Below, piece after piece: positions 33 through 48,000 of a stretch of 64,000 nt of DNA. A program made the translations under genes and the position numbers. The notes below the pieces were generated by a model. It saw only the letters and a list, made by a program, of their open reading frames with translations, had not been told where the DNA came from and did no database searches. The first letter of the stretch is position 1. Each line of letters begins with the position of its first letter. This stretch comes from Naegleria gruberi (Eukaryota): NCBI GenBank assembly GCA_000004985.1, contig GG738871.1; one strand, given 5' to 3'.

Positions 33-3000
33 TTGTTTTTCATTCAAAGTATTGTGTTAATAATACTTTTAACACAAACAACACCAGTTCTCTCATGGTC
101 CTATAGTATGAGAACTGTAGCTTCAGCACCAGATACTATTACTCAAATTGTTGGTGGTAATCAATTTATTTATGCTGCCTTTGGTTCTGATAATATTGTT
201 TATTATAACAGAAGTGATTCAACTCAAATTGATGTCGCTACCATGTTGGCTGCTACTAATACTAATGCTGGTTCTACTTTTAAATATGTCGCTTACCATG
301 GTCAAACTTCTGGAGGAAATGATATCATTTCTGCTGGTACTGTTAGTGGCATCTTTGATAGTGTTGGATTGTATTCATGCGCTATTGATTCACAGAACCT
401 TCCTGCCTCTTTGACGGCCTTTACTGGCACTTCTCCAACAAAATTATTTGGTGTGAGAGGAAAATCATCTAATTCTCCATCAGATCCTCAATTTTATCTC
501 ATGACAGATCAAGGAATTATTGAAGCTGATTCATCTAGTTCTTCGCCTGTTGGCTCTGCTTCATTTAGTACTCAAGTTGACTTGGATTTTAATTCTTCCA
601 TGGTAAGTTTATTTCTTCTAAAAACGTTGTGATAATCTAATACTTTGATAGATATTTTATTTGGATTCTTCTAGTAATCTTTGGTCGGGTTTGACTAGCA
701 GTACTAAAGTTATTGGCAGCGGACTTAATTTACCAAGATCTTTGAGCTTTGTTGATACTTTTAATCAAGTAAGTGATGAAATAGTACTCATTTCTCTAAT
801 TAAATTAGATTTTTATCTCTGATACTGGTAATGGTCGTGTTAAAGTTTTGGATCTATCCTCAAATCAAGTTACCACCATTGCCGGAGGTTCTTCAACTCT
901 TCCACCAAATGACTTTACACTTGTTAGCTCACCAACTAACTATCAAATTACTCCTACTGGTATTTGGGTTGACAAGTCAAATGGATACGTATACATTGCC
1001 GATGGAGCATACATAAGAGTTCTCACACCAACTTGTAACACCATTTCTGAGGATGCCTCTTCTTCATATCCTTTCTGTGTCTGCAAATCAGGCTATATTC
1101 TCCAAGATGGGGTTTGTGTTGTTAACAACTGTTTGACATGTAACTCAAATCAAACTTGCGTATCAAATGCCTGTGTCTGTAAAAATGGTTATTCTGGAGC
1201 TTTATGTTCTGAATACAAGTGTTTTGGTACCCCTAAAGATAATGTTGGAGTATGTAGTAGTAGAGGTTATTGTACTGCACCAGATAATTGTATCTGTACT
1301 GACTCTATGAAATACTCAGGCGCTTCATGTAATGTTACTACCTGTAATTCCATCCCATCCTATCAATCTAATGTTTGTTCTGGAAAAGGTCAATGTACTG
1401 ATTATAACTTGTGTGTATGTACCAACACAACTGAATACGGAGGAGTAAATTGTGAATATTTCAAATGTAATGGACTCAATTCAAATGATGGAAACGTATG
1501 CAGTAAGAACGGCACTTGTGTTGGAATTAATTCATGTTCATGCAATTCAAATTATGCTGGTAACAACTGCCAGTACCCTAAGTGTAACGGAATCCCATCA
1601 ACTGATACTAATAATGTTTGTAATAAGAATGGTACCTGTGTTGCTGTTGATACCTGCAACTGTAATGTTAATTACACTGGTCAATTCTGTCAATATCCAA
1701 AATGTAATGGTACAGCTTCAAACGATGCAAGTGTTTGTAACTCCAATGGTGTTTGTAGTGGTGTTAATAATTGTGTCTGTAATTCAAATTATACTGGCCA
1801 ATACTGTCAATTCCCTAAGTGTAACGGAATTGGCTCAAATGATATTAATGTTTGCTCAAAGAACGGTACCTGTGTTGCTGTTAATACTTGTAATTGTAAT
1901 GTTAATTATACTGGACCATATTGTCAGTATCCAAAATGTAATGGCACGGCTTCAAATGATATTAATGTGTGCAGTAAGAATGGTAATTGTATCGCTCCAA
2001 ATGTTTGTTCATGTAATTCAAGCTTTTCTGGCCAATTCTGTCAATATCCAAAATGTAATGGAATCCCATCAACTGATACTAATAATGTTTGTAATAAGAA
2101 TGGTACCTGTGTTGCTGTTGATACCTGCAACTGTAATGTTAATTACACAGGTCAATTCTGTCAATATCCAAAGTGTAATGGTACAGCTTCAAATGATATT
2201 AATGTGTGCAGTAAGAATGGTAATTGTATCGCTCCAAATGTTTGTTCATGTAATTCAAGCTACACTGGTCAATTCTGTCAATATCCAAAATGTAATGGCA
2301 TTCCATCAAACGATGCTAGTGTTTGTAATTCAAATGGTACCTGTATTGGTGTTAATACTTGTAATTGTAATGCTAATTATACTGGTCAATTCTGTCAATA
2401 TCCAAAATGTAATGGTACTAGCTTCTAATGATACTAATGTTTGCAGTAAGAAGGTGGTAATTGTATTGCACCAAATGTTTGTTCATGTAATTCAAGCTAC
2501 ACTGGACAATTCTGTCAATTCCCAAAGTGTAATGGTATTGGATCCAATGATGGAAGTGTTTGTAATGCAAATGGTACTTGTATTGGAATTAACATTTGTT
2601 CTTGCAATTCGAATTATGCTGGACAATTCTGTCAATATCCAAAATGTAATAGTATTGCTTCGAATAGTGGCAGTGTTTGTAATTCACAAGGATCATGTGT
2701 TGCACCAAATGTTTGTGTCTGTAATTCAAATTATACTGGCACTTATTGTGACAAACCAAGATGTGGCATCTATTATAAGGGTGATGCTTCTGCTTGTAAT
2801 TCGAGAGGTAGTTGTGATGCTGTTGATAGTTGTACTTGTAGTGATACATCTTCTTGGGGTGGCAATTTGTGTCAATATCCAAAATGTAATGCTGTTCTTT
2901 CAAATGTTGGAACTGTTTGTAGCAGTAGAGGAACTTGTCAATCTCCAAACAATTGTTCATGCACTGATCCAAGTTCATATGGTGGTTCATATTGTGAAAA

Positions 3001-5017
3001 AGCAAAATGTTATGGAATTCTTCAAGGAGATTCAAATGTTTGCAGTGGGCATGGTACTTGCAGTGGTGTGAATCAATGTTCATGCAGTGCTGGATATGGA
3101 GGTGAACAATGTCAATATCCAAAATGTTTCACTATTTTGAGTAATGAAACAACAGTTTGTAACAATAGAAACGGTACATGTACTGCACCTGATACTTGTT
3201 CATGTAACAACGGATGGACTGGAAGCAAGTGTGATGTTGCCATTTGTTTTTCAATTCTCTCCAATTCAACAAAGGTTTGTTCAAACAAGAGAGGTAGTTG
3301 TGTCACACCAGATAATTGTGTTTGTAAAAGTCAATATTCAGGTTCTCAATGTGAATATACCACTTGTTCTGGAATAAGATCAGATCAAACATCGACAGTA
3401 TGTTATGGAAATGGTCAATGTATTGATTATAATACTTGTAATTGTACAACTGGTTATGGACCATCCAATGTATGTCAATATCCAATTTGTGGTGGCTATT
3501 TGGCAAATGATACAAGAGTTTGTAACAATTCAAGAGGTGTATGTTTGAGACCAAATGAATGTAGACCATTAGATCCCGTATGTTATGGTAAAGCTCAGAA
3601 TAATTCAATGGTTTGTAGTGGACATGGTTCATGTATCGATTGGGATTATTGTGAATGTAAAACTGGTTTCAATGGAAATGAATGTCAAAATTGGGAATGT
3701 TATGGAAAGAATTATACCAACTCAAATGTTTGTAACAATGGAAATGGTACCTGCTCATCTGTGAATAATTGTGTTTGTAACAGTGGATGGTATGGAAATG
3801 AATGTACAGTTCCAATGTGTAATGGAATTCTTGCAAATTCATCCCTAGTTTGTAACAATGGAAATGGTACCTGCTCCAAACCAGGTGCATGCCAATGTAA
3901 TACTGGATACACAGGATCTGACTGTTCCATTCCAATTTGTTATGGCAAATTAGGCACTGATACAAGTAATGTTTGTTCAGGAAGAGCAGACTGTATTGGT
4001 TATAACAAGTGTAATTGTGACACTTCCAAGTATAGTGGTTCACAATGTGAATATTTCAAATGTTTTGGTATTCCGTCAAATGATGCTTCAGTTTGCAGCA
4101 GAAACGGAACATGTTCAGGTGTGAATCAATGTTCTTGTAATTATGGTTATGGTTCTTCAAATTGTGACATTTTCACATGTTCAAATGTTCTTGCCACCAA
4201 TTCAAGTGTTTGCAGTGGAAAGGGTGTATGTTATGGAATTGACAAGTGTTCATGTGATTCAGGATATTTTGGATCAAATTGTGAAATTATCTCCTGTTAT
4301 GGAATTCCAAAGTCCAACAATACTGTATGTGGTGGAGTTGGTGAATGTTCACAACTTGATACATGTGTTTGTGGAAGCGGTTATAGAGGCTCAATGTGTG
4401 AATTATCTTACACCTCTTCATCTCAAGCAACACTTCAATTCAACAATACGAATGAATATGTGAATGAACAATTCACAAGCATGGTCACTTTGACAATTAA
4501 TAATCCACTCTTCGGCCAATATTATTTGAGAAGAAGTGTTCAAGTTGTTGTTTCATTTGAAATTAATTCACAATTCAGTTATTCTGAAACACTTTATATT
4601 GAAAATGGAGTTTCATCTGTTTCATTAATGGTGAAATCGTTGAGTCAAACTGGTACATTGAAAGCATCTGCTCAATTAATTGATAATAGCACATTGATTT
4701 CCATTTCAGATAGTATTCAATCTTCAAATAGCATTACAATTCAAAATAGACCTATTGTTGTTCCATCTACAAAGACATCCACAACCAAACCAACAACCTC
4801 TGCACAAACAAGTAGAGCTGTTATCGATACAGGAAGTAATGCAGGAGCCATTGCAGCTGGTGTTATTGTTCCAGTGGCAGTTATTGGAATTGGAGGTGGT
4901 GTCACTGCAGCCATTGTCACAGCAGTTGTTTTATTAAAGAAGAAGGCTGCTGCAGCTGCTGCCGCAGAAATTTCCCATGCTCAACACGTCAATGTTGAAC
5001 TTGTTGAAGGTTTCTAA
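33..5017 (+). CDS. Giant secreted/type-I membrane cysteine-rich EGF-like repeat protein (~1630 aa); exons 33..602, 652..768, 809..5017
   Basis: N-terminal hydrophobic signal (MFFIQSIVLIILLTQTTPVLS). GTAAGT donors at 603 and 769 with TAG acceptors ending 651 and 808; the reading frame is preserved across both. The protein contains more than 45 tandem modules of type CxYPKCNG..CS..G.C..CxCN..Y(T/S)G..C. It ends with a Thr/Pro stalk (TKTSTTKPTTSAQTS), a TM helix (AIAAGVIVPVAVIGIGGGVTAAIVTAVVLL) and a short cytoplasmic tail. A local out-of-frame stretch lies at ~2419–2456 (see findings). Confidence 0.6.
1440..2760 (+). repeat. Tandem near-identical coding DNA repeats (~240/480-bp units) encoding EGF-like modules
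   Basis: Near-identical ~100-nt segments recur at ~1570–1680 vs ~2050–2160, and at ~1930–2030 vs ~2170–2270 (e.g. ccaaaatgtaatggaatcccatcaactgatactaataatgtttgtaataagaatggtacctgtgttgctgttgatacctgcaactgtaatgttaattacac). Confidence 0.6.
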
Positions 5018-5398
5018 TAAATCAAACTTTTCATCAGCTCTCTCAATAATTTATTTCTACCTTGCTCAATTCTTTCCACTATGTGCAACAATGGCAAATT
5101 GCCACAATAGAACATTGTAAAGAGATATGAAGATTCATATCTTCCACTAATCAACAACCAACAAACAAACTTAAAGACAATTTTACAATGCAAATCAAAT
5201 ACATACCCAAATCGAACCTTCTAGTAACTTTTCGCTTAACGAACTGTAACATGCATTAGCAAATTACTTCCACACTAGATATCGGCCAAACCAAATCGAC
5301 ATTTACCAAGTTGATAATTGACAAGATCATCTTCTACTCTGGGATCTGTTAAATACATGCTCTCTTGTGGAACATACATTACTTCATAACATAAAAAA

Positions 5399-7037
5399 AT
5401 GGTTTCGTCTACTAAGCAATTAACTATTGTTCTGACATTATTGTTTGCTTTTGCAATCATTAACATTTCACATGCTGCTGTTTATCAAGTGAAAGATGCT
5501 GTTACTTTGTGGAGTACTTTTGGTAAGCTCCAAGCTGGTAAGTTTCTAATAACAATGTTTGAATCAAATTAACAACCTCTTTGCATGTAATCGTGTCCGT
5601 TGGCATGTCAAAAACCTATTCGAAACTTGAATAGGTGACGAAATGATCATTAGACAAGGAACCTATTCCACATCCACAGGTGGATCTTACTATAGACAAT
5701 TCACATTGAGAGGTACATCCGCATTACCAATCAAAGTTTATGCTTGGAAAAACGAAACTGTCGAAATTAAGGGAGACGCAGCTGCCAGTCAAAATATTCT
5801 AAACTTTGATGTTGAATATTTTGTCATGGATAATCTTGGTTTCTCTCAAGGAAGTCGTGGTTTAAGATTTTTAAATTCGAAACATTCAGTTTATTCGAAT
5901 CTGAGAGTTAAAAACACTGGTGATGTTGGTATCTCCATGAATGATGGAAATGCGCTTTATCAAAACAATACATTCAGATATAATGAAGTTTCGTATACTA
6001 GAGGAACTGGTGAATGTTTCTATTTGGGTTGTAATAATGCTGGATGCAAGTTTATTTTCAATTTATTGGAAAATAACTATTGTCATCACACAAGCACTGC
6101 AGCCCAAGGAGATGGTATTGAAATCAAGACTGGAAGTTATGGAAATGTTGTTCGAAACAATGTCATTCATGATGGAAACTATCCTGGTATTACCTTATAT
6201 AGTACTTATTACAATGGTGTAGATAAGGATATTGGCATTGCTAATCCAAATATTATTGAAGGAAATATCATTTGGACTGTCAAAGACAATGGCATACAAG
6301 TGACAGGTAATGCCATTATAAGAAATAACATTATTTACAATGCAGGTGCAAGTGGAATTGCCATTCAAACCAATCAAGGAATTGTCGAAAATGTCAAAGT
6401 ATTGCACAATACAGTTGTCAAAGCAGGTGCTGCTTGTATTAGAGTGACAAATTCAGGTCCAGGAATTTTGATTGCAAATAATGCTGCCTATTGTGAAACA
6501 ACAAGTTCCGTTTATATTGCCTCAGCATTGCCTGCTGATGGAATTATCTCAAGAAATGTCATTCAGGGCTCGACTAATGTTCAAGTTGTGAATGGAACTC
6601 TCAATATTGGTAAATTCACAACTGATTTCCAAGGGAGTAGCGCCTTGCCATATAATGTGTTCCCAGTTGTTTCCAGTAATGTGCTTGGAAAGGCAGATTC
6701 AAAGTATGCTACCACTTATGATTTCAATTTTAATACTAGAAATGGGCCAACTTATGATTGTGGTGCTTATCAAGCTAATGGAGCTACTTCAAATCCTGGT
6801 TGGATTCCAACAACTGGTTTTAAGAATACTAATGCTCCAACTCCAGTCAATCCTGTAACTCCTGGTGCTTCAAAGACTCCAACTCCAGTCAATCCAGGCA
6901 CTTCAAAGACAACACCAACCAATCCAGCAAATAGTCCAACTGCAGTTAATTCAAACAAGAGAGTTAACAATGCGAATGTTTTGATGCAAAGTATTGCTGC
7001 CATGATTGTTGGTTTGCTTGTATTCATTGCTATTTAA
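5399..7037 (+). CDS. Secreted right-handed parallel beta-helix (pectin-lyase-fold-like) repeat protein with Pro/Thr linker and C-terminal hydrophobic GPI-like tail; exons 5399..5537, 5635..7037
   Basis: Signal peptide MVSSTKQLTIVLTLLFAFAIINISHA. Intron 5538..5634 (GTAAGT...ATAG), frame preserved. Repeated beta-helix-like motifs (NNVIHDGN, IEGNIIWT, IRNNIIYNAG, ISRNVIQG). PT-rich stretch (PTPVNPVTPGASKTPTPVNPGTSKTTPTNP). Terminal hydrophobic VLMQSIAAMIVGLLVFIAI. Confidence 0.55.
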
Positions 7038-9750: not shown

Positions 9751-10854
9751 TTATTTACTATCGCTCGATGATAATTGTTGTTGTTGGTCCAATGAACACT
9801 TTGGCTTCATAGTAAAATAGATACCATAGTGATCACTGCAAAACAAGTAATCTTTGGTGATGAAAGATAACCTCTGACTTTCCTCCTCCGAGAACAATAG
9901 CTTATTCTTCAATAACTTCTTGATGGAATTAGTTGCAAATAATCGTATAGCAGTGCAGGAGAGCTTAGATTCTGATGTTTTCCATTGTACTACTCGATCC
10001 AAACGTAATTGTTTATCAGCATCGGCAGCACTCATCTTTCCTAACATTGGATTTGTCTTACCATCCATTGTGTATCCCTTGTCTCCATTTGCTGTATGAA
10101 TATCAATCCACAAATCAGAAAATTCCTTAATGTGAGTAATGAAATTGGTCTCAAATGGCATATTCAAGTTAAAATCTCCCAGATAGATCAGCTCATTACA
10201 TGTATTCTTAGTGAGTTGCTTGGCTAGTTCATATAATTCTGCAACTTGCTTCTTTCTCACTTCAAAACATTCCTTCTTGGCTTTCAAGTGAACTGATCCG
10301 AAACAAATTCTAACACATTCTTCTTCTGATGTCTTGTAATCAGCAATTGAAAGAATGACCCTTCTGGAAAAGTTACTTGGGTAAGCAAACTTGTATTTGA
10401 GAAATCTGACATTGGTAAATTTGTGTTTCGATAACATGATCAAATTACCATAGGGAAAGACTGTAGAATGGCCAGAATCCTTCTTCTCACCCACTTCAAT
10501 TTCCGATAAGTAATAGTGATCTCTGACCCATTTCTCACTCATTAGTTTTGCAAGATATTGTGGAGTCATTTCACACAGAGTCAAGACATCCAATTGAAGT
10601 TTTTCCAACATTCTGATTTGAACACTGTATCGAATATCACTATACACAATATTATTCTGATAAATATCAAACAAGACATTAAAAGCAGCACACTTTAGCT
10701 CCTCGGAATTATATGTTACACTAGTATTGCTCCAATCCTTCTTTTCGTCCCATGTACTTGTCAATTCGTCATAGAAATACGCTGGTATAAATCTGAGATC
10801 GGTCTTTTCTGGTAATGTTATTTCATCCACCTTCTTATTATTTTCAGTAGACAT
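9751..10854 (-). CDS. Endonuclease/exonuclease/phosphatase (EEP) family protein, TDP2-like
   Basis: 367-aa ORF with EEP signature blocks: LQLDVLTLCEMT (Mg-binding E), YLGDFN (GDFN motif) and C-terminal SDHYGIYF (SDH motif). Confidence 0.5.
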   Translation of the reverse strand: MSTENNKKVDEITLPEKTDLRFIPAYFYDELTSTWDEKKDWSNTSVTYNSEELKCAAFNVLFDIYQNNIVYSDIRYSVQIRMLEKLQLDVLTLCEMTPQYLAKLMSEKWVRDHYYLSEIEVGEKKDSGHSTVFPYGNLIMLSKHKFTNVRFLKYKFAYPSNFSRRVILSIADYKTSEEECVRICFGSVHLKAKKECFEVRKKQVAELYELAKQLTKNTCNELIYLGDFNLNMPFETNFITHIKEFSDLWIDIHTANGDKGYTMDGKTNPMLGKMSAADADKQLRLDRVVQWKTSESKLSCTAIRLFATNSIKKLLKNKLLFSEEESQRLSFITKDYLFCSDHYGIYFTMKPKCSLDQQQQLSSSDSK

Positions 10855-11364: not shown

Positions 11365-14300
11365 CTAATTGGAAACTGAGAGTAATTGTTGACGAGAAGT
11401 GTTCATTTGGGAAAGAGTGCTAGAATTGAGCGAATGGGATTGATTGAGGAGTGATTCAATACTGAACATGCTCTTTCTCTTTTCTGCATTGTTTCGATTG
11501 AGAGATTCGTTTGTTTGATTCCAATTCTTATTGATTGGTTGTGTTGAAGCATTGATTGGACTCATGTGCTCCCAGTGGTTAATGAATTTCTTAGAAAATT
11601 GATTAAATTCATCAGAGTTTGCATTTTGAGAGAGACCCTTCATGAGCGATTCAACATTCTTATTAGAAAGATCATTAAATTGCAACATTTCTATTGATTC
11701 CTTTTCCACTCTCAAAGACTCTACTCTATGTTCAGTAAATATAAATTTTACGAGTTGCTTTCTAACTCCTTCATACAGAGCCGATAAGTAAACCAAAGCA
11801 AATACTATATTCTCCAATGAATTATTCAACTCTTGAATCTTGGAGAGATTTTTCTTCTTTTCTCCTTTCAATAATCTTCTTTCATCAATAAGATCCACAA
11901 CCTTGCTCTTTACAATTGGTATCAACTTATTCTCCATTGCAATAGCAATGACATCCTTATATCTTTTCGAAAGTATCATCTTCTTCAATGAGGAAATGGT
12001 GCTAGCTGGCTCACTTCTCAACTTTTCATAAATTTTACTCAAAGATCTCAGACACTGACAGCAATAATAGGCAGATCTGAATTCAATCTGTGAAATCCAA
12101 ATTTTGATCAACTCGGTTAAATGTTTTTGATTATACGAAAAGAATGGAATGACATTCTGCATCAAAGTTACAAAATCATTCACTCTCATCGAGTTCTTAT
12201 CAAAGTTTTGAATAATATGAATTAAATCTGTTGTAATCTTGTTGTAAAAATCTGGATTCAAAAGGAGAGAAATATTGTTATTCTTAATATTGTGAACAAT
12301 AGTCTTGGTAATGGTTGTAATCTTGGAGCTGGAAACAATTTCACTTGTTTGGAATTTCAGAAATTGATAACTATATGGATCTGAAATCATGGTTGAAAGA
12401 ATTTCCATATAAGTATTTGTGAAAATTTCTGTAATATTCTTCATATCGACTGATGAATTTGTTTCAATTAATTCATCTAATTGTCTAATTTGACGAACCA
12501 AACATTTGAAAAAGTTCCAAAAGTATTCTTCGTGTGAAAGATAGCCACAAGCTTGCTTATCCTTCTTTACACATGTCAATATTGTCATGAGAGCCAATTG
12601 TTCTAATTCGATCATGTCAGCATTTCTTAAATCCTTCAAATTGACTTCCTTTCCTTGTCTTTCTGAATGAATTCTTACCATCATTTCACACAACATGTTC
12701 AGCAAACCTTCTTCTCTTATAATTTTCACAATTTCTTCTTTTTGTCTCGAGTAGACACATGTGAAATTCAACATCTTTACCGATTCAAGAATGATTAGAA
12801 TTGGATCGATTGGTTTTCCATTTCTTTCCAATACGAAAGAGAGAACATTCTTTTCATCTTTTAAAAATGTGAACCAATAATCAGCAATGAATGAAACTAA
12901 ATCTTTGATTTGCTTTCCTCTCACCTCTAGAACATGTCTGTTGTTGTAATCTGAAATTTGCTCTGATAAACTTTGGAATAATCTCTTCAATGTTGGATTG
13001 GAAATAATTTCTCTTGATTTGGAGAATGTGGAAAAATCAGGTTTCAAATTTTCCAAATTAAGGAAGTTAACAACTTTAATTTGTTTCTTGCTCATCAACT
13101 TCTTCGAGAAACTACTATCATTCTTATTGTTTTTATCTCTATAATCAATTGAATCATGATCCTTATCAAATGAAAAGTTAGTTGAGCAATCAGAGCTTCT
13201 ATATTTGGTTAAATATTCTCTTGTGCTCATAAATGAATCTTCCACGAGCCTGTACTGTTTCACAGAGATTGGATCCATCATTTTCGAATTTACATGTGCG
13301 AAAGAACTCAATCCATAACAAGCTGCATGATAAAGCATCTCACGAGGGGGAATTTCGAATGTGAAATCTTCATCCTCCATGTTATCAACATTGATATCCA
13401 TTTCGAGAATGTTAATGGATGGATCAGAGAAGATATCTTCATCAAGGGTGGGGTTGTTGAGGTAATCGAATTCTTCATCCATTGAGGAATCTTGAAGTTT
13501 AGTTGCATCAATGGAAGCAGAAATGATATCAAACATGGAAACAACTCTATTCGAAAAGACATCTTCGAAAGTGTCAGTAACAAAGTGAAGCTTTCTATTG
13601 AATTCATTCCTTTCGTGGGCGTTCAACGTGGTCAAAATCTGCAGAATTGTTTCGTCTGTCAAATAGACGAAATTGTCTCCCTTTACAATATCCCAAATAT
13701 CACAACCATTCTTTTGTAATTCTTGTTGATCTTCTATTTTCATCTTGTAACCATACTTATCATCTCCAGTGTAAAGATTAATCAACATTGGAAAACCAGT
13801 TTGTTTCAATTGACTCAAACATTGATTGAAAACTGTGTTTGAAGTTTTCTTTTCAATGCCAAATGTCATGCAGTGGATAAAGTATGATCTAGAAATGTAG
13901 CGAGATGTTAATTGTTCAAAGAGAGTGTCTTCAAAGCTTTCTAATGCATTAGGTAAATAATCTTCACCGAATTGTTGGACGAAATCTCCCAAAAGTAAAG
14001 TAAGGACTTTTGAGGTCGTTTTCATCATATCACAAGTGGAGGAAACCATTTCAAGGGGAGTCGAAACAAACATTGAATCGTCATATGTTTTGAAAGCGTT
14101 AACACTTTCGTATACTTTCATCACTTGTTCCACCATTTGAACTTGATCCAAACTCAACAAATCCTTAATGAGAATCATTTCATTCTGAGCATTAGATTGG
14201 ATAGCAATCATATTAAACAACTCTACAAATTGATCTGAAAGATTGTCAGCCTCTGTTTGAGTTGGAAGATCAAAAACAACAATTTCCTTAATTTGGGAAC

Positions 14301-15982
14301 TGGTGTTTTCACATCTTCTTCTCCAGTTGAGTAAAATTGTTTGGATTTGAAGATTGATTCTCTCTTCAATGAATGAAATAACGGATCCATACAGTAAATC
14401 AAAGATAAAGTGAACTTGTTGTTGGGAATAGAACAGCGATCTACACTGGTCAACTGGTAAATCTAAAAGGTACGATACAATTTCAAGGTATGATCGTTAT
14501 CTTCGGATAGGATATCTGTAAAATCAAAGTTATAAATCCACATGCATGCAGATAGAACTCTATAAATGGAATCAGATTCTTGGGATGAAATCCCAAATTT
14601 GGAAAAGTAATCTTTCATTTTCTTAACATCCATTTTCAAAAAATTCAAGTCTTTATAGTTGACTTGATGTTTCTGAAACATTTTGTAAGTTTTCAAATCA
14701 TCCGAAATGAAATGATTCTCCTTTCCATATTCAGATTCACCAGCATTAATCATGAGAAGAAAGATGTGATACAAGGGTGGGTTTCTCTCTATCTGTAACC
14801 CCTCTCCACACAGAGTTCCCTCTCTAAATATGGATTTAATAGAGAGTGAGTGAATTCTATTATCCTGATCACATTTCATTGTAACAGTTCTCATGTGAGT
14901 TTGTGTGAGAGCTTTCTGATAGAGAATATTCGAAAATATGAGTAAAATGTTGAGAGCTGGACCGACTGTAGATATAATACTGTCCATATATTGCTCTTGT
15001 TGACTTCCTTGATTGGAAGAGTGATAGGGAAGTAGTTTCTTATTTAACAATGTCATGACTACTTGTTGTAATGTTACTTGTTTTTCCTTTGAACCTTCAC
15101 CCAATAATACTATACATTGTTGGTTAATACCATTACTTAATTGAGTATGAAGATAATTTACAACATCTTGACCGTTATTTACAATAGCTGAGGCTTGTTT
15201 CTTGTTGATGAATGTCACATCTGGATTTTTGAGAAGGATATTTCTCTTACCAAAATGCATCTAATGTTGATGTGAAATGTATTGTTATTGTGTTATTCTA
15301 ATGATAGGAGTGATAAAATACTTACTGTGAAAATTTGTGAAGATCTCAATTGATCCATGAATGACTTATTTACAAAATTTGTCCAATTGGCTACAACTTG
15401 CGCCAGGGAATGACAGCCAGGACTGGCCCACATGAGATTCTCCCTCTCCAGGTTGTTCAAGGCTGGAGCATCGACTGGATAACACTTGGATGGATCGACT
15501 TGAATCTCCTGTCCCCCAAGAATTTCATTACTTGAAATGTTTCTCTCGTTGATAATGACCTGGACGTTCTTGACCTGTCTAACCACTTGTGCCAAGTACA
15601 GTTTATCCTTGATTTCAACCCAAACCAATTCGTCTTTCTTGAACATTTTTCTGGTAGGTTCTTTATAAGTTATCTGAGGTGCAGAGCTTGTGCTTGATAC
15701 TGGAAAGTTTGGTATCAGAGCTGTGATTGGAAGAAAGCTTGGCGAGAAGAGGAAATCATCATTGAATGCAGCAGTGGTTGGAGCTACTTGTTCACCACTT
15801 GATGTTGAACTTGTAGTGGAGTGAAGCGATGATGTATCATCTGATTGATTATCATCTTCATATCTATTCTCTAGGAGAGTGATAAATTTTGGAGTGCTCG
15901 GTGGAGAAGGAACTTTAGATGAATGATGCATGTTCTTCATTGGGTCTCTCAACTCAATGATTGATTCTTGATTCGATAACAT
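11365..15982 (-). CDS. Highly divergent myosin-like protein with degenerate nucleotide-binding motifs (pseudo-motor); exons 15326..15982 and 11365..15260, with an apparent 1-nt homopolymer frameshift near 14465–14468
   Basis: The exon-1 ORF (15293..15982) has a myosin N-terminal SH3-like region (KKDELVWVEIKDK..VQVIINER..QVDPSKCYP). A GTAAGT..TTAG intron (15261..15325) joins in frame to ORF 14463..15260. The P-loop is NQQCIVLLGEGSKEKQV (vs NQSxLITGESGAGKT) and ERNPPLYHIFLLMINAGESE matches ERNYHIFYQL. Switch I is degenerate (CDQDNRIHS vs NSSRFGKFI). The HYGNxxF block is CMWIYNFDF. Switch II is degenerate in the 3' part (IVVFDLPTQTEADNLSDQFVELF vs IGVLDIAGFEIFxxNSFEQLCIN). The ORF continues 951 aa to 11365. 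Confidence 0.55.
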
Positions 15983-17607
15983 TCAAGAATATACTAGTAT
16001 TCTATTTTGCAACGTTTTTTGAAATGTTCAATGAGAAAAATCGTTAGGTCAAATTTGATATGGAGACTTTCAGTTGTTTTTTTAAAGAAAACTTTCATGA
16101 GACTGAACCAGATTGGTGTAAGTTATGGAAAAAACGTTACGGATTGAAAACAATAACGGTTAGAATCTGAATTTGCAATTGCGATGAATAAGGGAGTTAG
16201 GAGGAGTGAAGTTGCTAGAGTCGCAAAGAAAAGAGAATCATTTTGATGTCCCTGCCAAGCTGTCTGGCATGTCCTTAATAAAGGAATTTCCTAAATAAAA
16301 TTTCTGTTAGTGGCTTAACGAATTAAAATTCTATCTATAAGGAATCGTAGACACTGGGATAATTGTGAGAAGTTGCGAAAGTGAGCATAATTAAGATTAT
16401 TTTGTAAGGTATCAGTACGATTTCCCTTATGAATACCTTGGACAATGCTCACAAATCTAGTTAAGCCATCTCAAAACAATTAAATTGGTATCTTCTGCCT
16501 TTGTGAATTTAATAACTGATAGATTCTTCTCTCCACTTTGGTTTGACTGTAAAGTAGTATTTATATAGATGTATGTACAATAGGATAGACCTATTATATC
16601 TTACAAGGTGATCACTATTCGGTTTAAATAATGTCATTCTGTTGTCGTGTTATTTATTTAAACATAGACGCCTGTCCATAACAATGTGAAAAAGAGGCCA
16701 AGTCCTAAAATGATCGAAGAGGAGGCAGCCAATGTAATTTCCTTGAAGAAACTTCTGTGTTGCTTTGTTGTAGTTGTTTCATAACTGTTATTTGTGATGG
16801 AAATTCCAAAATCATCATAATCAGCATTATCCAATAGTAATTCATCATCAACAATTATTTTAACACGTAAATTTGATAATCAATAATTTCCACACCAGAT
16901 AATTCCACAATGTGTGATGATTAAATACAAATCCAAATTTCGCAAATAGTTATACAAGCAAAATTAATAATTTGTCGAATTAATTTATATTGAATTGTAT
17001 CCACAAAGTGATCATCGTCAATTTTTCATCATCAAAACAAAATATAATTAATAATTTTATATACCTCCGGAATCTAGATCCCTCATCAACTTACACCAAA
17101 AATAAAGCCATCAATACAAAACCAATAGATGAGAGAACAACAGCCAAGGTTGGGTAGCTGTTTGGATCAACAGGGCTGTGATATTGAAGATTGGAGGACA
17201 TTTTATTCTTGTTGTTGGATCAAGCAACAATTCCTCTGCTGAAAAAAACTCGCAAAGATTCTTCCCGCTCTTTGGTAGTTTTAATAAGTATTCTTCAGGC
17301 TTTGATTTAAGCTTGTGGAGTTGAGAGAGATTTTGGCTTACGTTCAAACGAATAATGAAACTAAGAATTCAATAGATATCAAGGAGAATTGATGAAAGGA
17401 AATAGGAGTTGTGTTTCATTATTAATTGAAATAGGAATCTAAATGGAATGTTCAAAAGAAGGAACTGAATTGGATTGTTTTAATAATGGTCAATTTTAAG
17501 TTAATGACAACCCCAGCAAATCAATAATCTAATATCACTCAATTCAGCATGCTGGTTTCTAATTTGAAATTATTAAACTATTTATTGAAATTTAAATTGA
17601 ACTATTT

Positions 17608-19038
17608 CTAAAGTGAAGGCATTTGTTGACTGATACAGTGCATTCCTCCTCCACCCATGTTAATAGCTTCAGTTGAAATTGCAACAATTACATGATTTGG
17701 ATATACTCGCTTAAATATTTGAAGAGCTTCTTCATCAGAATCTTTAACGTGTTGGGGAAGACCTTCACGATAATATTTGGAGATGAGAACAGTATTATTA
17801 CTCACTAAGAAATTCAAATAACTCGAGGCAATAATGTACTTGTAAGTTTGGTCATCATGCATAACAAGTCCATCTTCAAATTCCAATTCCTGTAATGTAT
17901 CGAAACAGGAGTCACCCTTCTTGAGATCCATAACAATGTGTGGTCCAACTGGAACTTTGATAATTTCGAATGGTTCTCCTTTGAGATTGGTTTGCTTTTT
18001 GAGGAGTTCATAGTTTTGCTCGAGTCTCTTTCTATTCTCAACAGAGATACAATCATTCAAGTGAACTGGTACATAGGCAAGGAGAATGGTATTCTCAGTG
18101 GCAAATCTAGCCCACTCGTCAATGTGTCCTCCAGTACCATAAGATGCCAATAATTCAGTGCCTGGAATGAGTCCTCGATATGAGCATTGATCTTCAACAA
18201 GACCCTCAGTTTCCAACCAGATGATCTTTTCAGCACTTTTACCAAAAACTCTCTTCATTTCATGCTCGATTTGTTCTCTATTTTCAATATTGTTATCCTT
18301 ATTTCTTTGCATTTCAACATGTTCGACCATCATCATGACACCATTTCCATTGTACTCTCTGTCACCACCTTCACTGATGAGGTGAGAACGTACAACTGGA
18401 ATATTTAACTTGTTAGCAACCTTCTATCAANNNNNNNNNNNNNNNNNNNNNNNNNNNNNNNNNNNNNNNNNNNNNNNNNNACGAAATTGGACCATTATCT
18501 CTCATCCACACATCCAAATGTTCGATAATATGATATCTCATTCTCTTTTCAATCAATTCAACAGAAATATTATTTCTTTGTTTTAAAAACTTTTCCACAT
18601 TCATCTTATCTTCCTCTTCATGAATAATCAAATCAATATAAAACTCTGATCCATTCACATTATTATTCAAGAGCAAAGCTTCCATCATTGGAAGTCTATC
18701 ATTCATTAATTCACAAAGAATTCACAACATGATCACTTACTGCACTTGATGGAAAGGACTATATCTGATTGGTTCTTCTGGACAAACCTTGAATGCAAAT
18801 TCATAATTATTCTCCTTTGTGGTTGGGCCTAATTAAAGTGTAAAGTTAGTGTCATTCGGAAGTTGATGATCACTTACCAAGAGCCATCCAAATACTTTCG
18901 TGATGTTCAAATTCACCTATTTTCATAATAGAATTCATTTGTTTCATCATGGAATGTCCACCAAACAGAAAAAAACAATTAAATCTATCGACACATTGAA
19001 AATGTTTGTGGAAACGTACCTGGGAAAACGAAGGACAT
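17608..19038 (-). CDS. Agmatine deiminase (porphyromonas-type peptidyl-arginine deiminase family); >=5 exons, spans an N gap
   Basis: Exons (minus): 19020..19038 (MSFVFP), 18878..18916 (GEFEHHESIWMAL, the PAEWEPHxxxW hallmark), 18741..18828, and 18695 downward to the gap. DVWMRDNGPI lies before the gap. After the gap: GTGGHIDEWARF ... and C-terminal NMGGGGMHCISQQMPSL (catalytic Cys motif). Introns 18917..19019, 18829..18877 and 18696..18740 are all GT..AG. Confidence 0.7.
18431..18480. other. Assembly gap (50 N)
   Basis: Run of n characters inside the agmatine deiminase coding region. Confidence 0.99.
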
Positions 19039-19502: not shown

Positions 19503-21008
19503 ATGAACAATTCAAAATCTTCAATGATTTCATTCGGGGCAGCAATTGTCTCGATGATAGCAGTCACATTGATGATGCTATCAATAGCCTCTGCCTTCTC
19601 GGTAAAGAGTGATATCGATTATCGTACAGTATTGTCTGATTATGTGAAGGGAAATAATCAATACTTTAAATATCAATTGAAGGGTACTTATGATAATGAT
19701 TATGGAAAATTCATAATCTTCAACATGACCAGTGTAAAGTGGTTGGATGAGAAGGAGCTTGGGAATAGCTGCTATTGGTTCCACTTGGTCGAAATTGCCA
19801 TTCCAAAGAAGATTAAGCAACAATCAAATGTGTTGATGTTGGTTGCTGGTGGATCTCAAAAGGAGATTGCACCAACAAGTGATAATGAATTAATGAAAAT
19901 GGCTGCCAGTACTCAATCTATTGTTGCATCTATTCATCAAATTCCAAATCAACCTTTGGTTTTCAATTCTGATCCAACAAGACAACAAAGAATTGAAGAT
20001 GAAATTCTTGCCTATGCTTGGGCAAAATTCATGCAAAACACAACTCAAACTGGGTGGATTCCAAGATTACCTATGGTTAAGGCAACCATGTTGGCAATGG
20101 ATGTTGTTCAAGAATATTTGAGAACTACCTTATCAATTAATGTAATGAATTTCCATGTTGCAGGAGCAAGTAAGAGAGGTTGGACCACTAATTTGGTAGG
20201 TGTTGTTGATAAGAGAGTTAGAAGTATCATGCCAATCGTTATTCCAGTAATGAAAACTAGAGATATTCTTGGTAAGTTAACAAAACTATATTAGTTAATG
20301 ACCCTATTGTAAAATATAGAACATTCTTACAATTCGCTTTGCACATGGCCAGAAGCAATGGGTGATTATGTTAAAGAAGGTATCACTACAAAATTAAACT
20401 CTAAAGAATTCCATCAACTGACAACAGTTATAGATCCTTTCGAATATAATGATATTTTGGCAACAATCAACAAGTATTTCATTTATGCCACTGGTGATCA
20501 ATTCTTCCTTTGCGATCTTAGTCAATTCTCTTATCCATACCTTAAGGGAGGTGACCAACTCAAACATTTAAGATATGTTCCAAATACTGATCACTCTTTG
20601 GATGGATCTGATGCCCAAGTTTCTGCTTTAGCTTATTACTTTAGTTTGGCCAACAAGCTTCCACTTCCAGTTTACAATTTTACAGCAGTTTCTGATAGGA
20701 CTGGCGTTTCTGTTGGTGTCAAGGTAATGAGCCCGATTCCACCATCTGCTGTCCTGTTGTGGGAAGCTCGTGCTCCACAAAGAGATTTCAGACTTCAAAC
20801 CATTGGAAAAGCATGGAAACCAAGACCACTCCAATTGTCTAAAGATGGTAGTGTTTCAGTTCACCTGGATAATCCAGCCACTGGCTATTATGCTGCCTTT
20901 GTTGAATTAACATTTGATTATTTAGGAACACAAATTCCTCTCAAGTTTACAACATCAGTTTATGTTCTTCCTGATATTTTGCCATGTAAATACCATAATA
21001 AAGTTTAA
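19503..21008 (+). CDS. PhoPQ-activated pathogenicity-related protein family member, secreted; exons 19503..20271, 20320..21008
   Basis: Signal peptide MNNSKSSMISFGAAIVSMIAVTLMMLSIASA. Phase-1 intron 20272..20319 (GTAAGT...ATATAG). Family-like blocks (WFHLVEIAIPK, VLMLVAGGS, WIPRLPMVKATMLAMDVVQEY, HVAGASKRGWTT). Total ~485 aa. Confidence 0.6.
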
Positions 21009-43452: not shown

Positions 43453-44455
43453 ATGTCTATCCCGAAGATTCAAGAATTAAATCAAGACTTGCTACATGTA
43501 ATTTTTAGTCATCTAACGGAGGAGGATGTACACAATTTTATGATTTCCAACAAGTCTATTTATGAGTATTGTATAAGGGACGATGTTTATAAAATAATAT
43601 TTAATCAAGTGATTGATCGAGTTGAATTATTTCCTATGAAGGAAGTGTTCAATCCCGAGTCAAGAAATATGGAGGCCAATACTGAAAATACAAATCATAA
43701 ACTGAAGAATATTGAGAAAAATTATAGAAAGGAATTAGTGAAATATGGAAAAAACACCAAGTCAACCAATCGTTTTTTTACTAAGCAAGAAATTATGGAA
43801 ATGACTGTGGATACTAAAAAACTGAAAACAGCTACAGAAAATAAGGAAATCAAATTTGTAATAGTTGGAGATGGCGCTGTAGGAAAAACCACATTTTTAC
43901 GAAGGATTGCAATGCCAATGGATATTGATGCATTTATTCCAACAGTTTATGACTTTTATTCATATCAAGCAAAAAACCTATCATTTCAATTGTAGGATAG
44001 TGCAGGACAAGAAGAGTAAGTAATCATTTATTTTGAAAATGATTCAGATTTTTAGTTATGACAAATTAAGACCATTGTGTTATCCAGGAACGGAAATGTT
44101 CTTGTTGGCTTATTCAATAACTCAAAGAGAGAGCTTTTTCAATATTAAAAAGAAATTCATAAGGGAGGTGAAATATCATGTACCAAATGTGAATTGTGTA
44201 CTTGTTGCATGTAAAATTGATTTAAGAAATAATCAAGATGTAATGGACAGATTAGCAAAAAGATATGAACAACCAGTCTCATTTGAAGAAGGATTGAAAT
44301 TAGCCAAGCATTTGAAATGTTTAACTTTTTGGGAAACCTCATCTACAACTGAGGAAGGATTTGAACAAATAGGAGATTTCTTTACAAAATTATATTACCT
44401 GAAACATTCTTTGGCCTTCAAAGAAAACAAATCTAAAACTTGCTTTCTTCAATAA
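43453..44455 (+). CDS. F-box-like N-terminal domain fused to a Rho-family small GTPase (C-terminal CFLQ CaaX), interrupted by an in-frame TAG at 43993–43995; second exon 44062..44455
   Basis: F-box-like LNQDLLHVIFSHLTEEDVHNF. G1 KFVIVGDGAVGKTTF. Switch I PTVYDFYS. Then LSFQL-TAG-DSAGQEE, where Rho proteins have LWDTAGQE. Intron GTAAGT...TTTTAG (43996..44061). Then YDKLRPLCYPGTEMFLLAYS, CKIDL, ETSS, ...KTCFLQ. Confidence 0.55.
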
Positions 44456-45070: not shown

Positions 45071-48000
45071 ATGGTTTTCAGCTCATCCTCTAAAGAGGAG
45101 GCTTCTCTTCTCCACAACAATAACCATGAACAACAACAACAACACAATTCACCCAGCAACAGTAGTGGCGGGTTCAAATTTTCCCTCTCTTCTCTGATGG
45201 GCGCCAAAACCAAAACACAAAATAATAACAATAACACCTCAACTACAATTTCCGCCTCCTCATCAACCTTGGCATCATTGAATAATCCGTATGCTGCCTT
45301 TACAAATTCATTCTCCTCGGAGGGAATCCTTTCTAATTTAAATAATATTAATAATAATAATAATGGAAGTACATCAAGTAGTGGCAATAATACACCAAGA
45401 AGGAAAATATCAAATCCTAAAGCTATTCCTCTCCTGAATACAGCATTGATTTCTTCGAATTTAATTTCGGAACCAATAATTGATCATGGCACTACTGTAA
45501 ATTTTGCAACTGCTCAAGTTGATCATCCCAATACGAAACTCTATTCTATTATTCACGAATTACAATTAAATGTAAATTTTAATCAGGGAATGAATAGTGG
45601 TAATTGGACTGGATATTTTGAAGGAATATTACAGGAAAATGTTAATAATTTTGGATCACCTGGAATTGTTTCAACAACTCCGAGAGGAAATCATCATGTT
45701 ATTTCTCAATCAATGCCATATCTTTCAAATTCAAATCCTAATTCACCTTCGTCTTCGTCTTCATTTGGTGAGAAAACCAGAGGATTGAGGAATTTAGTAA
45801 TGGGAAAATCAATGAATAATTTAGATTTTTCGCCATCATCAATTAGTCAATTTGATGCCTACTTGATGAAGAAGGAAAGGAAATTATTACAAAAGTTTGG
45901 AAGATTTCCATATATAAGAATTTCTGCAGTCAAAAGTGGGAATGTTACTCCAAGAACTCCTCGAACGCCAAGAACTCCAAGAGCTAGCCCTCTTGTCATA
46001 ATGAGGCCAAAGGAAAATACAAGTAATATGGAGGAATTAGTATTGGATGCCGGAAGTCTAATACTTTCACCTAGACCAAGTATGTCATCAACACCAAGAT
46101 CTGATAGATCATTGGATGGTGATTCACCAATCACTGAATACTCAATTGATGATGTAACATTTCTTGATCGTCCAACAACTGACAATATTACTAACTTGTT
46201 AGAATCGAGGTATAACAAAAAGGATCAATCACAAAAGAAATCTCCCCAAGTTTATACTTATCTTGGAGATGCATTGAGTAAGTTTATTCTTTCAAATCAA
46301 GTGGTATTAATACTGGGCTAGTTTTTGTAAATCCAAATGATATTAAGGAAACTGAAGGATTGTATAAGAACAGCGTAATGCACTTTTACCACAAGAAACT
46401 TCCATTTGCTAGAGCTCCCCATATTTTTTCGATAGCAGAGAATGCATTTAGAACCATGAAAGAAACAAGGCAACCACAAACAATAATTGGTATGTATTTG
46501 TTTTAACATTAATTTATGACGTGAAAAATTACAATAGTGAATGGTGAAAGTGGTTCTGGAAAAACGGAGAGTAGCAAACTCATTCTCAAATATTTAACAG
46601 TTGTCTCACAAAATGGGCCTTCATCTTACTTTGTAAAACATGTATTAACAGAATCAAATCAACTTTTAGAAGCTTTCGGAAATGCAAAAACTCTGCACTG
46701 TGACAATTCATCCAGATTCGGTAAATATACTACTGTTTATTTTGGATTTGGTGATAGAATTGAAGGTGGAAAAATTAGTACAGTAAGTATAATTTAAATT
46801 ATCAAAACTCATTTCATCCTTTCAGATTCTGTTGGAAAAAAGTCACATTACGAATCAGAGAAAAAAGGAAAGAAATTTCCACATATTCTATCAGCTATGC
46901 AGAGGAGCAGATAGATCTATGAAAGAGGAATTCAATCTGCATGATCCATCTGAGTTCTTGTATCTAAACTCTACAGAGACAGTGATAGATGGAGTCGATG
47001 ATATGCGAGAATTTAAAAAAACAATTAAGAGTATGGATTCAATAGGATTTTCGAGTAATGACCGGAAAGAAATATTCAGGGTAGTTGCAGGAATTTTACA
47101 TTTAGGAAATATTCAATTTTTGGAAGGTAATTCAAAAGATAGAGCAGAAATAGTGGAAAATGATGCCCTCAAGTGGGCCTCATTATGCTTGGGAGTTCAA
47201 CCTAATCAACTAAAGCATGCTCTATTGGCACGTACTTTGAATACCGAGGAAAAGGTTGTTACTTTTCAAACTGCTGTTCAAGCTAGATTCAACAGGGATG
47301 CTCTGGCGAAAGGTATTTACGAGAGACTTTTTCTGTGGATAGTTCAGAAAATCAATTCAGTAATCAAACCAAAAACAAAGAAAATGGTTACAAAAATTGG
47401 TATTTTAGATTTGTATGGTTTTGAAATTTATCCATCCGATAACTCTCTAGAACAGTTGAATATCAACTTTGTAAATGAAAAACTTCAACAACACACATTG
47501 AAGCTCTTACAACAGGAGAAAGATGAATATGTGAAGGAAGGAATTTTCAACATGGATCTATTCACCATACTGTCTAAGGAGTTGAAAAAAGATTTTCTCT
47601 CTGATTTTGATACTATTAATGATTGTATTAGCTGTATAGAAGACAAACCACTGGGTATCTACTCACTCCTGGATGAAGAAGATTACCTTAACGTTTCAGG
47701 TGATGAAAGATATCTTGCTAAATTGAAAGAGAATTTGAAAAAGTCAAATAGTTTCGAACCTGCAAGATTCAAAAGTACTACCTTTAGTCTTAAACATTTT
47801 GCAGCTAAGGTAGATTATAACGTTACTGATTGGGTCAAAAAGAACAAGGATACATTGTTCAAAGATCTAATTGATGCCATGTGTAAGAGTTCGTCAGACC
47901 TGGTACAAGAACTTTTTAAACCATTAGACGACTTCTATTCAGGAAGAGAAAGCAAACGAAGACTTCAAGAAACCATTGTAAAACAATTTAAACGAGATGT

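What the first reader, a model, noticed from the sequence alone, without database searches (positions are those of the whole stretch)
11365..15982. Myosin-derived gene whose ATP-binding motifs are all degenerate (candidate pseudo-motor)
The protein aligns with a myosin head along its length. This covers the SH3-like N-terminal barrel, the ERNYHIFYQL block (here ERNPPLYHIFLL) and the HYGNxxF block (CMWIYNFDF). All three nucleotide-binding elements are nevertheless replaced. The P-loop GESGAGKT becomes GEGSKEKQ. Switch I NSSRFGK becomes CDQDNRIH. Switch II DIxGFE becomes DLPTQTE. Long ORFs are retained (951 aa uninterrupted), which argues the gene is still under selection. An ATPase-dead myosin that retains the actin-binding and lever scaffold would be functionally unusual, acting as a tether or regulator. 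A canonical myosin lies elsewhere in the same window (45–50 kb).
Basis: partly seen in the sequence, partly recalled or inferred. Interest (0 to 1): 0.7.

Follow-up and report, generated by a model that had tools for sequence, protein, structure and literature searches.

The report
Catalytically dead myosin relative in Naegleria
This Naegleria gruberi gene encodes a conserved protein that keeps the fold of a myosin motor but has lost every ATP-handling motif, and apparently the actin-binding and lever parts too; such a "pseudo-motor" is useful to know about and is missed by current annotation, but it is not an unprecedented kind of protein.

Summary

Orthologues exist in N. lovaniensis, N. fowleri and Willaertia magna, with remote relatives in unnamed metagenomic eukaryotes. 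Selection is purifying (dN/dS 0.04 between two N. gruberi strains; about 0.17 between N. lovaniensis and N. fowleri). The former nucleotide pocket is the most conserved part of the protein.

The cardiomyopathy-loop (CM-loop) and lower-50K regions are shortened, the lower-50K region is also unconserved, and there is no IQ motif. The tail looks like an ARM-type helical solenoid.

Myosin-derived pseudo-motors are already known (kinetoplastid MyoH/MyoG-derived genes, class-17B). I file this as a new member of a known kind.

The parts
11365..15982 (-). Whole gene: about 1517 codons, one intron, one 1-nt frameshift in the reference sequence. The public model (P0001, 'predicted protein', 1231 aa) splices from 15326 to about 14440 and so drops the conserved first part of exon 2.
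15326..15982 (-). Exon 1 (aa 1-219): Ser/Thr-rich disordered N-terminus, the SH3/Tudor-like barrel and the start of the pseudo-motor.
15261..15325 (-). Intron, 65 nt, GTAAGT..TTAG, phase 0. Its position is conserved in N. lovaniensis (111-nt intron after ..SSQVFT).
14484..15260 (-). Exon 2, the part in the upstream reading frame (aa 220-478). [quoted passage not shown] The public model treats it as intron, yet it shows 6 synonymous and 0 non-synonymous differences to an independent strain.
14466..14496 (-). Interval that must contain the 1-nt deletion (between the last stop in the downstream frame and the TAG of the upstream frame). The best fit to the orthologues is 14480..14488, for example the AAA run 14483..14481.
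11365..14484 (-). Exon 2, the part in the downstream reading frame (aa 479-1517 plus the stop codon).
15467..15652 (-). N-terminal SH3/Tudor-like beta-barrel (aa about 111-172).
13519..15466 (-). Pseudo-motor domain with the myosin head fold (aa about 173-800; interrupted by the intron and the frameshift).
15078..15101 (-). P-loop equivalent GEGSKEKQ (aa 273-280; canonical GESGAGKT). It lies in the most conserved 20-aa window of the whole protein.
14889..14909 (-). Switch I equivalent LTQTHMR (aa 337-343; canonical NSSRFGK).
14254..14271 (-). Switch II equivalent DLPTQT (aa 550-555; canonical DIxGFE).
13861..13881 (-). FIHCMTF strand (aa 680-686), equivalent to the F/YxRCIKPN strand. It is followed by SH2/SH1-like helices and a converter-like region.
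13039..13518 (-). Acidic, poorly conserved linker (aa 801-960). No IQ motif.
11554..13038 (-). All-alpha tail of about 500 aa, ARM-like solenoid (aa about 961-1455).
   Evidence: AF2 helices at pLDDT 70-87; best Foldseek hits are importin-alpha, designed ARM proteins, Vac8 and APC-ARM at weak E of 2e-3 or worse.

Best explanation
The gene encodes a lineage-restricted pseudo-myosin. The protein consists of:
- an SH3/Tudor-like barrel;
- a complete but catalytically dead myosin-head fold;
- no IQ or lever region;
- an acidic linker;
- an ARM-like helical solenoid tail of about 500 aa.

Shown:
- Homology to the myosin motor.
- Family-wide loss of Walker A, switch I and switch II. The residues that coordinate Mg2+, sense the gamma-phosphate and form the switch I-switch II salt bridge are all replaced.
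- Shortening of the two main actin-binding regions.
- Purifying selection.
- Orthologues in three Naegleria species and in Willaertia, plus remote relatives in unnamed metagenomic eukaryotes.

Inferred:
- It cannot hydrolyse ATP by the myosin mechanism and does not step on actin.
- It works as a static scaffold or adaptor. The myosin fold serves as a rigid interaction module and the ARM-like tail recruits partners.
- The former nucleotide pocket, the most conserved part of the protein, now acts as a structural or binding site.
- The single frameshift in the reference is either an assembly error in a short homopolymer run or a very recent lesion of the sequenced strain. It explains why the public gene model omits the informative exon.

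For: Dead motifs: shown in the family alignment and by a regex scan of the whole proteins.

Spacing: conserved across the N-terminal and upper-50K scaffold, but the CM-loop segment is 45 aa (real myosins 61-74) and the switch II to FxRC segment is 130 aa (real 152-232).

Conservation: the three most conserved 20-aa windows are the P-loop equivalent, the helix plus switch I equivalent, and the IFT..NPD (purine-loop) equivalent. The lower-50K-like region has 3% invariant columns, against 19% overall.

Selection:
- 13 synonymous and 2 non-synonymous differences over 465 codons against an environmental N. gruberi-like contig, dN/dS 0.04. In the stretch annotated as intron the count is 6 synonymous and 0 non-synonymous. 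From the site counts, 0 of 6 has a neutral probability of about 6e-5 (my arithmetic).
- N. lovaniensis against N. fowleri: pN 0.16 against pS 0.58 in the pseudo-motor, dN/dS about 0.17.

Other points: the orthologues are colinear across the intron and the frameshift. The tail fold is described, and tail homology to one remote member has E 8e-5. Precedent: the T. cruzi pseudomyosin MyHd, which lacks the P-loop, localises to a defined structure, the cytopharynx (PMC7300353).
Against: - Nothing here tests function. There are no expression, localisation, nucleotide-binding or actin-binding data.
- The AF2 models are low-confidence (motor pLDDT 48, pTM 0.46; tail pLDDT 59), so the fold matches rest on local geometry and the subdomain arrangement is unknown.
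- Loss of actin binding is inferred only from length and conservation. The hhalign alignment in the lower-50K region is unreliable.
- The ARM assignment is weak (E >= 2e-3, TM about 0.2-0.3, no Pfam Arm/HEAT hit).
- The frameshift could be real, in which case the sequenced strain would make only a 484-aa product.
- The strong conservation of G..[ST]KEK in the ex-P-loop could mean that some ligand is still bound there.
Confidence: 0.7

Rival explanations
1. One reading: an ATPase-dead myosin that still binds actin and keeps a lever, and so acts as a passive actin tether or regulator.
For: The overall myosin fold, the relay-like helix, the SH1/SH2-like helices and a converter-like region are retained. 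The upper-50K 'HLGN' helix region is well conserved.
Against: The CM-loop segment is 12-40 aa shorter across the family than in the shortest of 89 real myosins (about 16 aa shorter in N. gruberi). The relay/lower-50K/loop-2 segment is about 65 aa shorter than the median. The lower-50K-like region has 3% invariant columns. There is no IQ motif and no Pfam IQ hit.
Confidence: 0.12
2. The N. gruberi copy is a recently inactivated pseudogene: the frameshift is real in strain NEG-M, while the family is functional in other species. This is compatible with the best explanation for the family as a whole.
For: The reference sequence needs a 1-nt correction within 14466..14496 to read through. No independent sequence covering the site could be found.
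Against: This is the only lesion in about 4.6 kb. All three ORF segments are free of stops, including 1039 codons downstream of the shift in 33% GC DNA. Upstream, dN/dS against an independent strain is 0.04. The likeliest site is a short homopolymer run, a typical place for a base-calling or assembly error.
Confidence: 0.2
3. The former active site still binds a nucleotide or another small ligand without hydrolysing it. The protein would then be a conformational switch or sensor, by analogy with ATP-binding pseudokinases.
For: The ex-pocket elements are the three most conserved windows of the protein. The P-loop lysine and an NP purine-loop remnant are kept. G..[ST]KEK recurs in three deep lineages.
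Against: The second Walker glycine is replaced by Glu. The Mg2+-coordinating Thr and Ser are replaced by Gln. The switch II Gly and Glu are replaced by Thr. The switch II Asp is not conserved in the remote members.
Confidence: 0.12
4. The resemblance to myosin is chance or compositional, and the gene is an unrelated orphan.
For: Pfam Myosin_head gives no hit. phmmer against PDB gives nothing. Pairwise BLASTP to the neighbouring myosin has E 0.023.
Confidence: 0.01

Closest known systems
Kinetoplastid myosin-derived genes: MyoH-derived (MyHd, the 'pseudomyosin') and MyoG-derived (PMC5778035; MyHd localisation in PMC7300353)
   Same: Genes that descend from myosins, lack a functional P-loop, are annotated as hypothetical, and have been kept for hundreds of millions of years. 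They occur in Discoba, the same supergroup as Naegleria. MyHd localises specifically to the T. cruzi cytopharynx, which shows that such proteins can have non-motor roles.
   Different: Those genes keep only a remnant of the head (about 130-144 aa recognisable) and are still found by BLAST/CDD against class XIII myosins. Here the whole head fold of about 690 aa is kept, but the sequence has diverged so far that Pfam misses it. The tails also differ (ARM-like here). The exhaustive HMM search found no kinetoplastid relative, so orthology is not supported.
'Dead' or extremely divergent myosins noted in the census of 7852 myosins (class-17B fungal chitin-synthase myosin-like domains, class-77, SchsMyoE; PMC5583752)
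   Same: [quoted passage not shown] This gene combines most of these features.
   Different: The lineage (Heterolobosea) and the tail are different. In the inventory text I could read, N. gruberi orphans are described as having only coiled-coil tails (PMC2375034), which does not fit this gene. I could not check CyMoBase itself.
Canonical unconventional myosin, for example the class-I-type myosin in the same window (45071..50401)
   Same: The same fold and the same order of elements: P-loop strand, FGN helix, switch I, ERN..HIFY, HLGN, RDALAK helix, switch II strand, relay helix, FxRC strand, SH helices, converter. Spacing is similar across the N-terminal and upper-50K parts.
   Different: The canonical myosin has intact GESGSGKT, NSSRFGK and LDLYGFE, a Pfam score of 441 bits and TH1 tails. 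The pseudo-motor has none of these.
Myosin-18 and the kinesin pseudo-motors Vik1/Cik1 (from my own knowledge, not checked here)
   Same: The concept is the same: a motor-family fold kept for binding or structural roles, with little or no ATPase activity.
   Different: As I recall, myosin-18 keeps the nucleotide-binding motifs and binds actin. Vik1/Cik1 belong to the kinesin family and work as partners of an active motor.

Membership tests
Myosin superfamily (motor-domain homologue) | Homologous myosin head fold | tested here: met
Myosin superfamily (motor-domain homologue) | Pfam PF00063 Myosin_head at the gathering threshold | tested here: not met
   No hit at E<=10 in any of the 4 orthologues. 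Positive control: the neighbouring myosin scores 441 bits.
Functional myosin motor | Walker A / P-loop GESGxGKT | tested here: not met
   GEGSKEKQ at the aligned position; no G....GK[ST] anywhere in the protein
Functional myosin motor | Switch I NxNSSRFGK | tested here: not met
   KALTQTHMR at the aligned position; no SSR in the N. gruberi protein
Functional myosin motor | Switch II DIxGFE | tested here: not met
   DLPTQT at the aligned position; the Asp itself is lost in the remote members
Functional myosin motor | Actin-binding elements (CM loop, lower-50K helix-loop-helix, loop 2/3) | tested here: inconclusive
   The segments are 16 aa and about 65 aa shorter than in real myosins, and the lower-50K-like part is unconserved. 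There is no reliable residue-level alignment and no binding assay.
Functional myosin motor | IQ motifs / light-chain-binding lever | tested here: not met
   No IQ consensus, strict or loose, after the converter-like region; no Pfam IQ hit
Functional myosin motor | Actin-activated ATPase and motility | not testable with these tools
   Needs biochemistry
Myosin-derived pseudo-motors (kind) | Descends from a myosin, has lost the catalytic motifs, and is maintained by selection | tested here: met
Kinetoplastid MyoH-/MyoG-derived genes (orthology) | Detectable sequence relationship closer than to myosins in general | tested here: not met
   The exhaustive HMM search returned 11 hits: family members and three ordinary myosin fragments. 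Family members outside Naegleria/Willaertia come only from unnamed metagenome and SRA-assembly sources.
Armadillo/HEAT alpha-solenoid (tail) | Stacked helical repeats similar to ARM proteins | tested here: inconclusive
   AF2 gives an all-alpha model with helices at pLDDT 70-87. The best Foldseek hits are ARM proteins but weak (E >= 1.9e-3, TM 0.2-0.35). No Pfam Arm/HEAT hit.
Decaying pseudogene | Several disabling lesions and neutral substitution pattern | tested here: not met
   One frameshift only and no in-frame stops; dN/dS 0.04

The most novel reading that the evidence does not exclude
The family is an old pseudo-myosin lineage. It is present in Naegleria and Willaertia and in at least two or three unidentified eukaryotes with different base composition. 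In this reading its strictly conserved ex-nucleotide pocket has been converted into a binding site for a ligand or partner. A myosin head would then be acting as a non-hydrolysing switch or sensor coupled to an ARM-like cargo platform.
Probability: 0.12. Interest if true: 0.7.

Novelty: new member of a known kind. Interest (0 to 1): 0.45.

Why it matters
1. It corrects a public gene model. The annotated N. gruberi protein lacks 265+ conserved residues because one missing base forced a false 886-nt "intron". This hid the only region that shows what the protein is.

2. It shows that Pfam-threshold myosin inventories (for example PMC3942036) can miss whole myosin-derived families. This affects counts of the cytoskeletal repertoire in Naegleria, which includes the pathogen N. 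fowleri.

3. It offers a natural experiment: a full myosin head fold kept under selection after all catalytic motifs were lost, with the former active site as the most constrained region. This could show what a myosin fold can do other than act as a motor.

Tried and rejected
- Pfam scans of the joined protein and of all four orthologues gave no Myosin_head, Myosin_N, IQ, Arm or HEAT hit.
- phmmer against PDB gave nothing. A four-sequence profile against PDB gave only a marginal myosin I hit (6ui4, E 0.065), though in the correct HLGN register.
- A frameshift-corrected N. gruberi sequence could not be submitted for structure prediction or exhaustive search. I used the N. lovaniensis orthologue as the target, with N. 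gruberi fragments as alignment rows.
- Attempts to resolve the frameshift:
  - The only independent N. gruberi-like contig (L002) ends at window 14521, about 25 nt short of the site.
  - Two metagenome pattern scans found nothing.
  - Exact-product look-ups of the two ORFs created by the frameshift found nothing.
- An intron cannot repair the frame. N. gruberi already has the shortest sequence in this stretch, and the flanking residues align to the orthologues.
- A third homologue search with a family alignment found no new named taxa.
- The tail is not detectably related to the tail of remote member P0130.
- The neighbouring canonical myosin is rejected as a recent parent.
- I did not attempt a phylogeny to name the parental myosin class. 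The divergence is too great for it to be meaningful.
Full report
**Organism and gene structure.** The window is Naegleria gruberi: the public "predicted protein" P0001 matches at 100% identity. On the minus strand the finding covers three ORF segments: 15982..15293, 15260..14463 and 14220..11365. Reading the sequence shows a GTAAGT..TTAG intron of 65 nt (15325..15261, phase 0). It also shows a change of reading frame that one extra base would repair.

The orthologues are N. lovaniensis (P0002, 1761 aa), N. fowleri (P0003, 1843 aa) and Willaertia magna (P0004, 1376 aa). They are colinear across both the junction and the frame change. N. lovaniensis has an intron at the very same codon.

The public N. 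gruberi model instead jumps from ..SSQIFT to CRSLFYSQ... This removes 265+ residues that are among the best conserved in the family.

**The frameshift.** It must lie in 14496..14466. Scoring every possible one-base repair against the orthologues puts it at 14480..14488, for example the AAA run 14483..14481 (score 125-129). An intron cannot explain the shift, because N. gruberi already has the shortest sequence in this stretch.

I could not determine whether the missing base is an assembly error or real. The one independent N. gruberi-like contig (L002, 97.9% identical) stops at window 14521. Two metagenome scans and two exact-product look-ups found nothing.

**Is it myosin-derived?** Simple searches say no:
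- Pfam gives no Myosin_head hit at E<=10 for any orthologue.
- phmmer against PDB finds nothing.
- A four-sequence profile gives only a marginal hit to a myosin I (E 0.065), although in the right register.
- BLASTP against the neighbouring myosin gives E 0.023.

Sensitive methods agree that it is:
- hhalign of the pseudo-motor alignment against 20 genuine myosins gives Prob 95%, E 2.7e-8.
- With remote members added it gives Prob 98.4%, E 9e-15 over 591 columns spanning the whole head.
- An AF2 model of the N. lovaniensis head is poor (pLDDT 48, pTM 0.46). Even so, Foldseek returns only myosin motor domains in the top 50 (best E 4.7e-13; 251 hits at E<=1e-3).
- An exhaustive HMMER search of 1.84 billion representatives with the family profile finds genuine myosin fragments at E 2e-5 to 5e-4.

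**The motifs.** The alignment gives these correspondences:

| Canonical element | N. gruberi equivalent | Residues |
|---|---|---|
| GESGAGKT (P-loop) | GEGSKEKQ | aa 273-280 |
| NSSRFGK (switch I) | LTQTHMR | aa 337-343 |
| DIYGFE (switch II) | DLPTQT | aa 550-555 |
| FxRCIKPN strand | FIHCMTF | aa 680-686 |

In standard myosin terms (established knowledge, Dictyostelium numbering), several catalytic features are missing:
- the Mg2+-coordinating Thr186 and Ser237;
- the Arg238-Glu459 salt bridge;
- the gamma-phosphate-sensing Gly457.

The P-loop lysine is kept. A regex scan finds no Walker A, SSR, DxxGxE or IQ motif anywhere in any family member, while the control myosin shows all the catalytic ones.

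**What is kept and what is lost.** I measured spacing between landmarks in 89 real myosins and in the family.

| Segment | 89 real myosins (aa) | Family (aa) | N. gruberi (aa) |
|---|---|---|---|
| Switch I to HLGN | 115-129 | 118-141 | 124 |
| RDALAK helix to switch II | 36-61 | 36-53 | 44 |
| HLGN to RDALAK (holds the cardiomyopathy, or CM, loop) | 61-74 | 26-56 | 45 |
| Switch II to FxRC (relay, lower 50K, loop 2) | 152-232, median 196 | 117-170 | 130 |

The first two segments match real myosins, so the scaffold is preserved there. The last two, which hold the main actin-binding elements, are shortened.

Conservation among the four orthologues is also uneven. The three most conserved 20-aa windows of the whole 1517-aa protein are:
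- the P-loop equivalent plus its helix, at 80% invariant;
- the FGN-helix plus switch I equivalent, at 75%;
- the IFT..NILLKNPD block, at 75%; this corresponds to IYTY..NPY and the purine-binding loop.

By contrast, the lower-50K-like stretch has 3% invariant columns, against 19% overall. The former nucleotide pocket is therefore the most constrained part, and the classical actin interface is the least constrained. No IQ motif follows the converter-like region.

**Tail.** After an acidic, unconserved linker comes an all-helical region of about 500 aa (AF2 pLDDT 70-87 over most helices; mean 59 including the disordered ends). Its best structural matches are armadillo-repeat proteins: importin-alpha, designed ARM proteins, Vac8 and APC. 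These matches are weak (E >= 1.9e-3).

**Selection.**
- Against the environmental N. gruberi-like contig there are 13 synonymous and 2 non-synonymous differences over 465 codons (dN/dS 0.04). In the exon-2 stretch that the public model calls intron, the count is 6 synonymous and 0 non-synonymous.
- Between N. lovaniensis and N. fowleri, pN is 0.16 and pS is 0.58 in the pseudo-motor (dN/dS about 0.17; dS is near saturation, so this is rough).
- Apart from the one frameshift there is no stop codon in about 1517 codons of 33% GC DNA.

**Distribution.** Named members are N. gruberi, N. lovaniensis, N. fowleri and W. magna. The exhaustive search adds unnamed members from metagenomes and SRA assemblies:
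- P0135: 1215 aa, full length, P-loop equivalent GPSTKEKC.
- P0130: 1258 aa, P-loop equivalent GETSYREK, on a contig of 42-49% GC. Its upstream ORF carries the barrel and the IFT..NP block.
- P0127 and P0136.

All have degenerate motifs, so the loss predates their divergence. The tail of P0135 is probably homologous to the Naegleria tail (hhalign E 8e-5). The tail of P0130 is not detectably related.

**Comparison with what is known.**
- In kinetoplastids, MyoG-derived and MyoH-derived genes are described as myosin-derived genes with eroded heads (PMC5778035).
- The T. cruzi "pseudomyosin" MyHd, which lacks the P-loop, localises to the cytopharynx (PMC7300353).

The kind is therefore known. I did not find this particular family in the texts I could search. 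The 2007 inventory gives N. gruberi three orphans with coiled-coil-only tails (PMC2375034). The 2014 inventory relied on the Pfam gathering threshold (PMC3942036), which this protein fails. I could not consult CyMoBase.

**Verdict.** The protein is a conserved ATPase-dead myosin derivative, but the evidence points away from a retained actin-binding and lever apparatus. It points towards a non-motor scaffold: a myosin-fold module plus an ARM-like tail, with a repurposed and strongly constrained ex-active site. Function remains inferred. I rate it a new member of a known kind, of moderate interest.

Noticed in passing
window 45071..50401 (+); introns 46278-46321, 46490-46537, 46783-46825: Canonical myosin of 1731 aa with intact GESGSGKT, NSSRFGK and LDLYGFE. 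It scores 441 bits on Pfam Myosin_head and has three Myosin_TH1 stretches. It also has a low-complexity N-terminal extension of about 370 aa. The public model (XP_002676561) is only a 712-aa partial.
   Followed up: partly
window 19503..20294 and 20358..21008 (+): Two adjacent ORFs carry the two halves of one PhoPQ-activated pathogenicity-related domain (PF10142, profile positions 1-220 and 228-367). This implies a short intron or a frameshift between them. The family is of bacterial type, so horizontal acquisition is possible.
   Followed up: no
window 17608..18336 (-): This ORF matches only the C-terminal half (profile positions 150-321) of a Porphyromonas-type peptidyl-arginine / agmatine deiminase (PF04371). 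The N-terminal half should lie in an upstream exon.
   Followed up: no
window 2867..5017 (+), 5643..7037 (+), 9751..10854 (-): Unrelated neighbours: a teneurin-type EGF-repeat protein, a right-handed beta-helix protein, and a weak endonuclease/exonuclease/phosphatase-family match directly downstream of the pseudo-myosin gene.
   Followed up: no
window 43453..44455 (+): Two ORFs that together look like a small GTPase (VIVGDGAVGKTTF..). They are preceded by an N-terminal extension of about 130 aa and split by an intron or frame change.
   Followed up: no
L002 (ENA ERZ929261, contig k127_367171), aligned to window 14521..18430: An environmental metagenome contig 97.9% identical to the window, from an N. 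gruberi-like strain. It is useful for within-species dN/dS but ends about 25 nt before the frameshift site.
   Followed up: yes
L004 (N. fowleri contig, ENA ERZ2098899), gene at 501..6032: The N. fowleri orthologue is one uninterrupted ORF. It lacks the intron that N. gruberi and N. lovaniensis share after ..SSQ[IV]FT. This means either intron loss or a transcript-derived assembly.
   Followed up: partly
L001 (SRA run SRR32315873 assembly), 2461..6934: A remote family member (P0130) on a contig of 42-49% GC. Its N-terminal barrel and IFT..NP-like block sit in a separate upstream ORF, which suggests an intron at a place comparable to the Naegleria one. The organism is unknown.
   Followed up: partly
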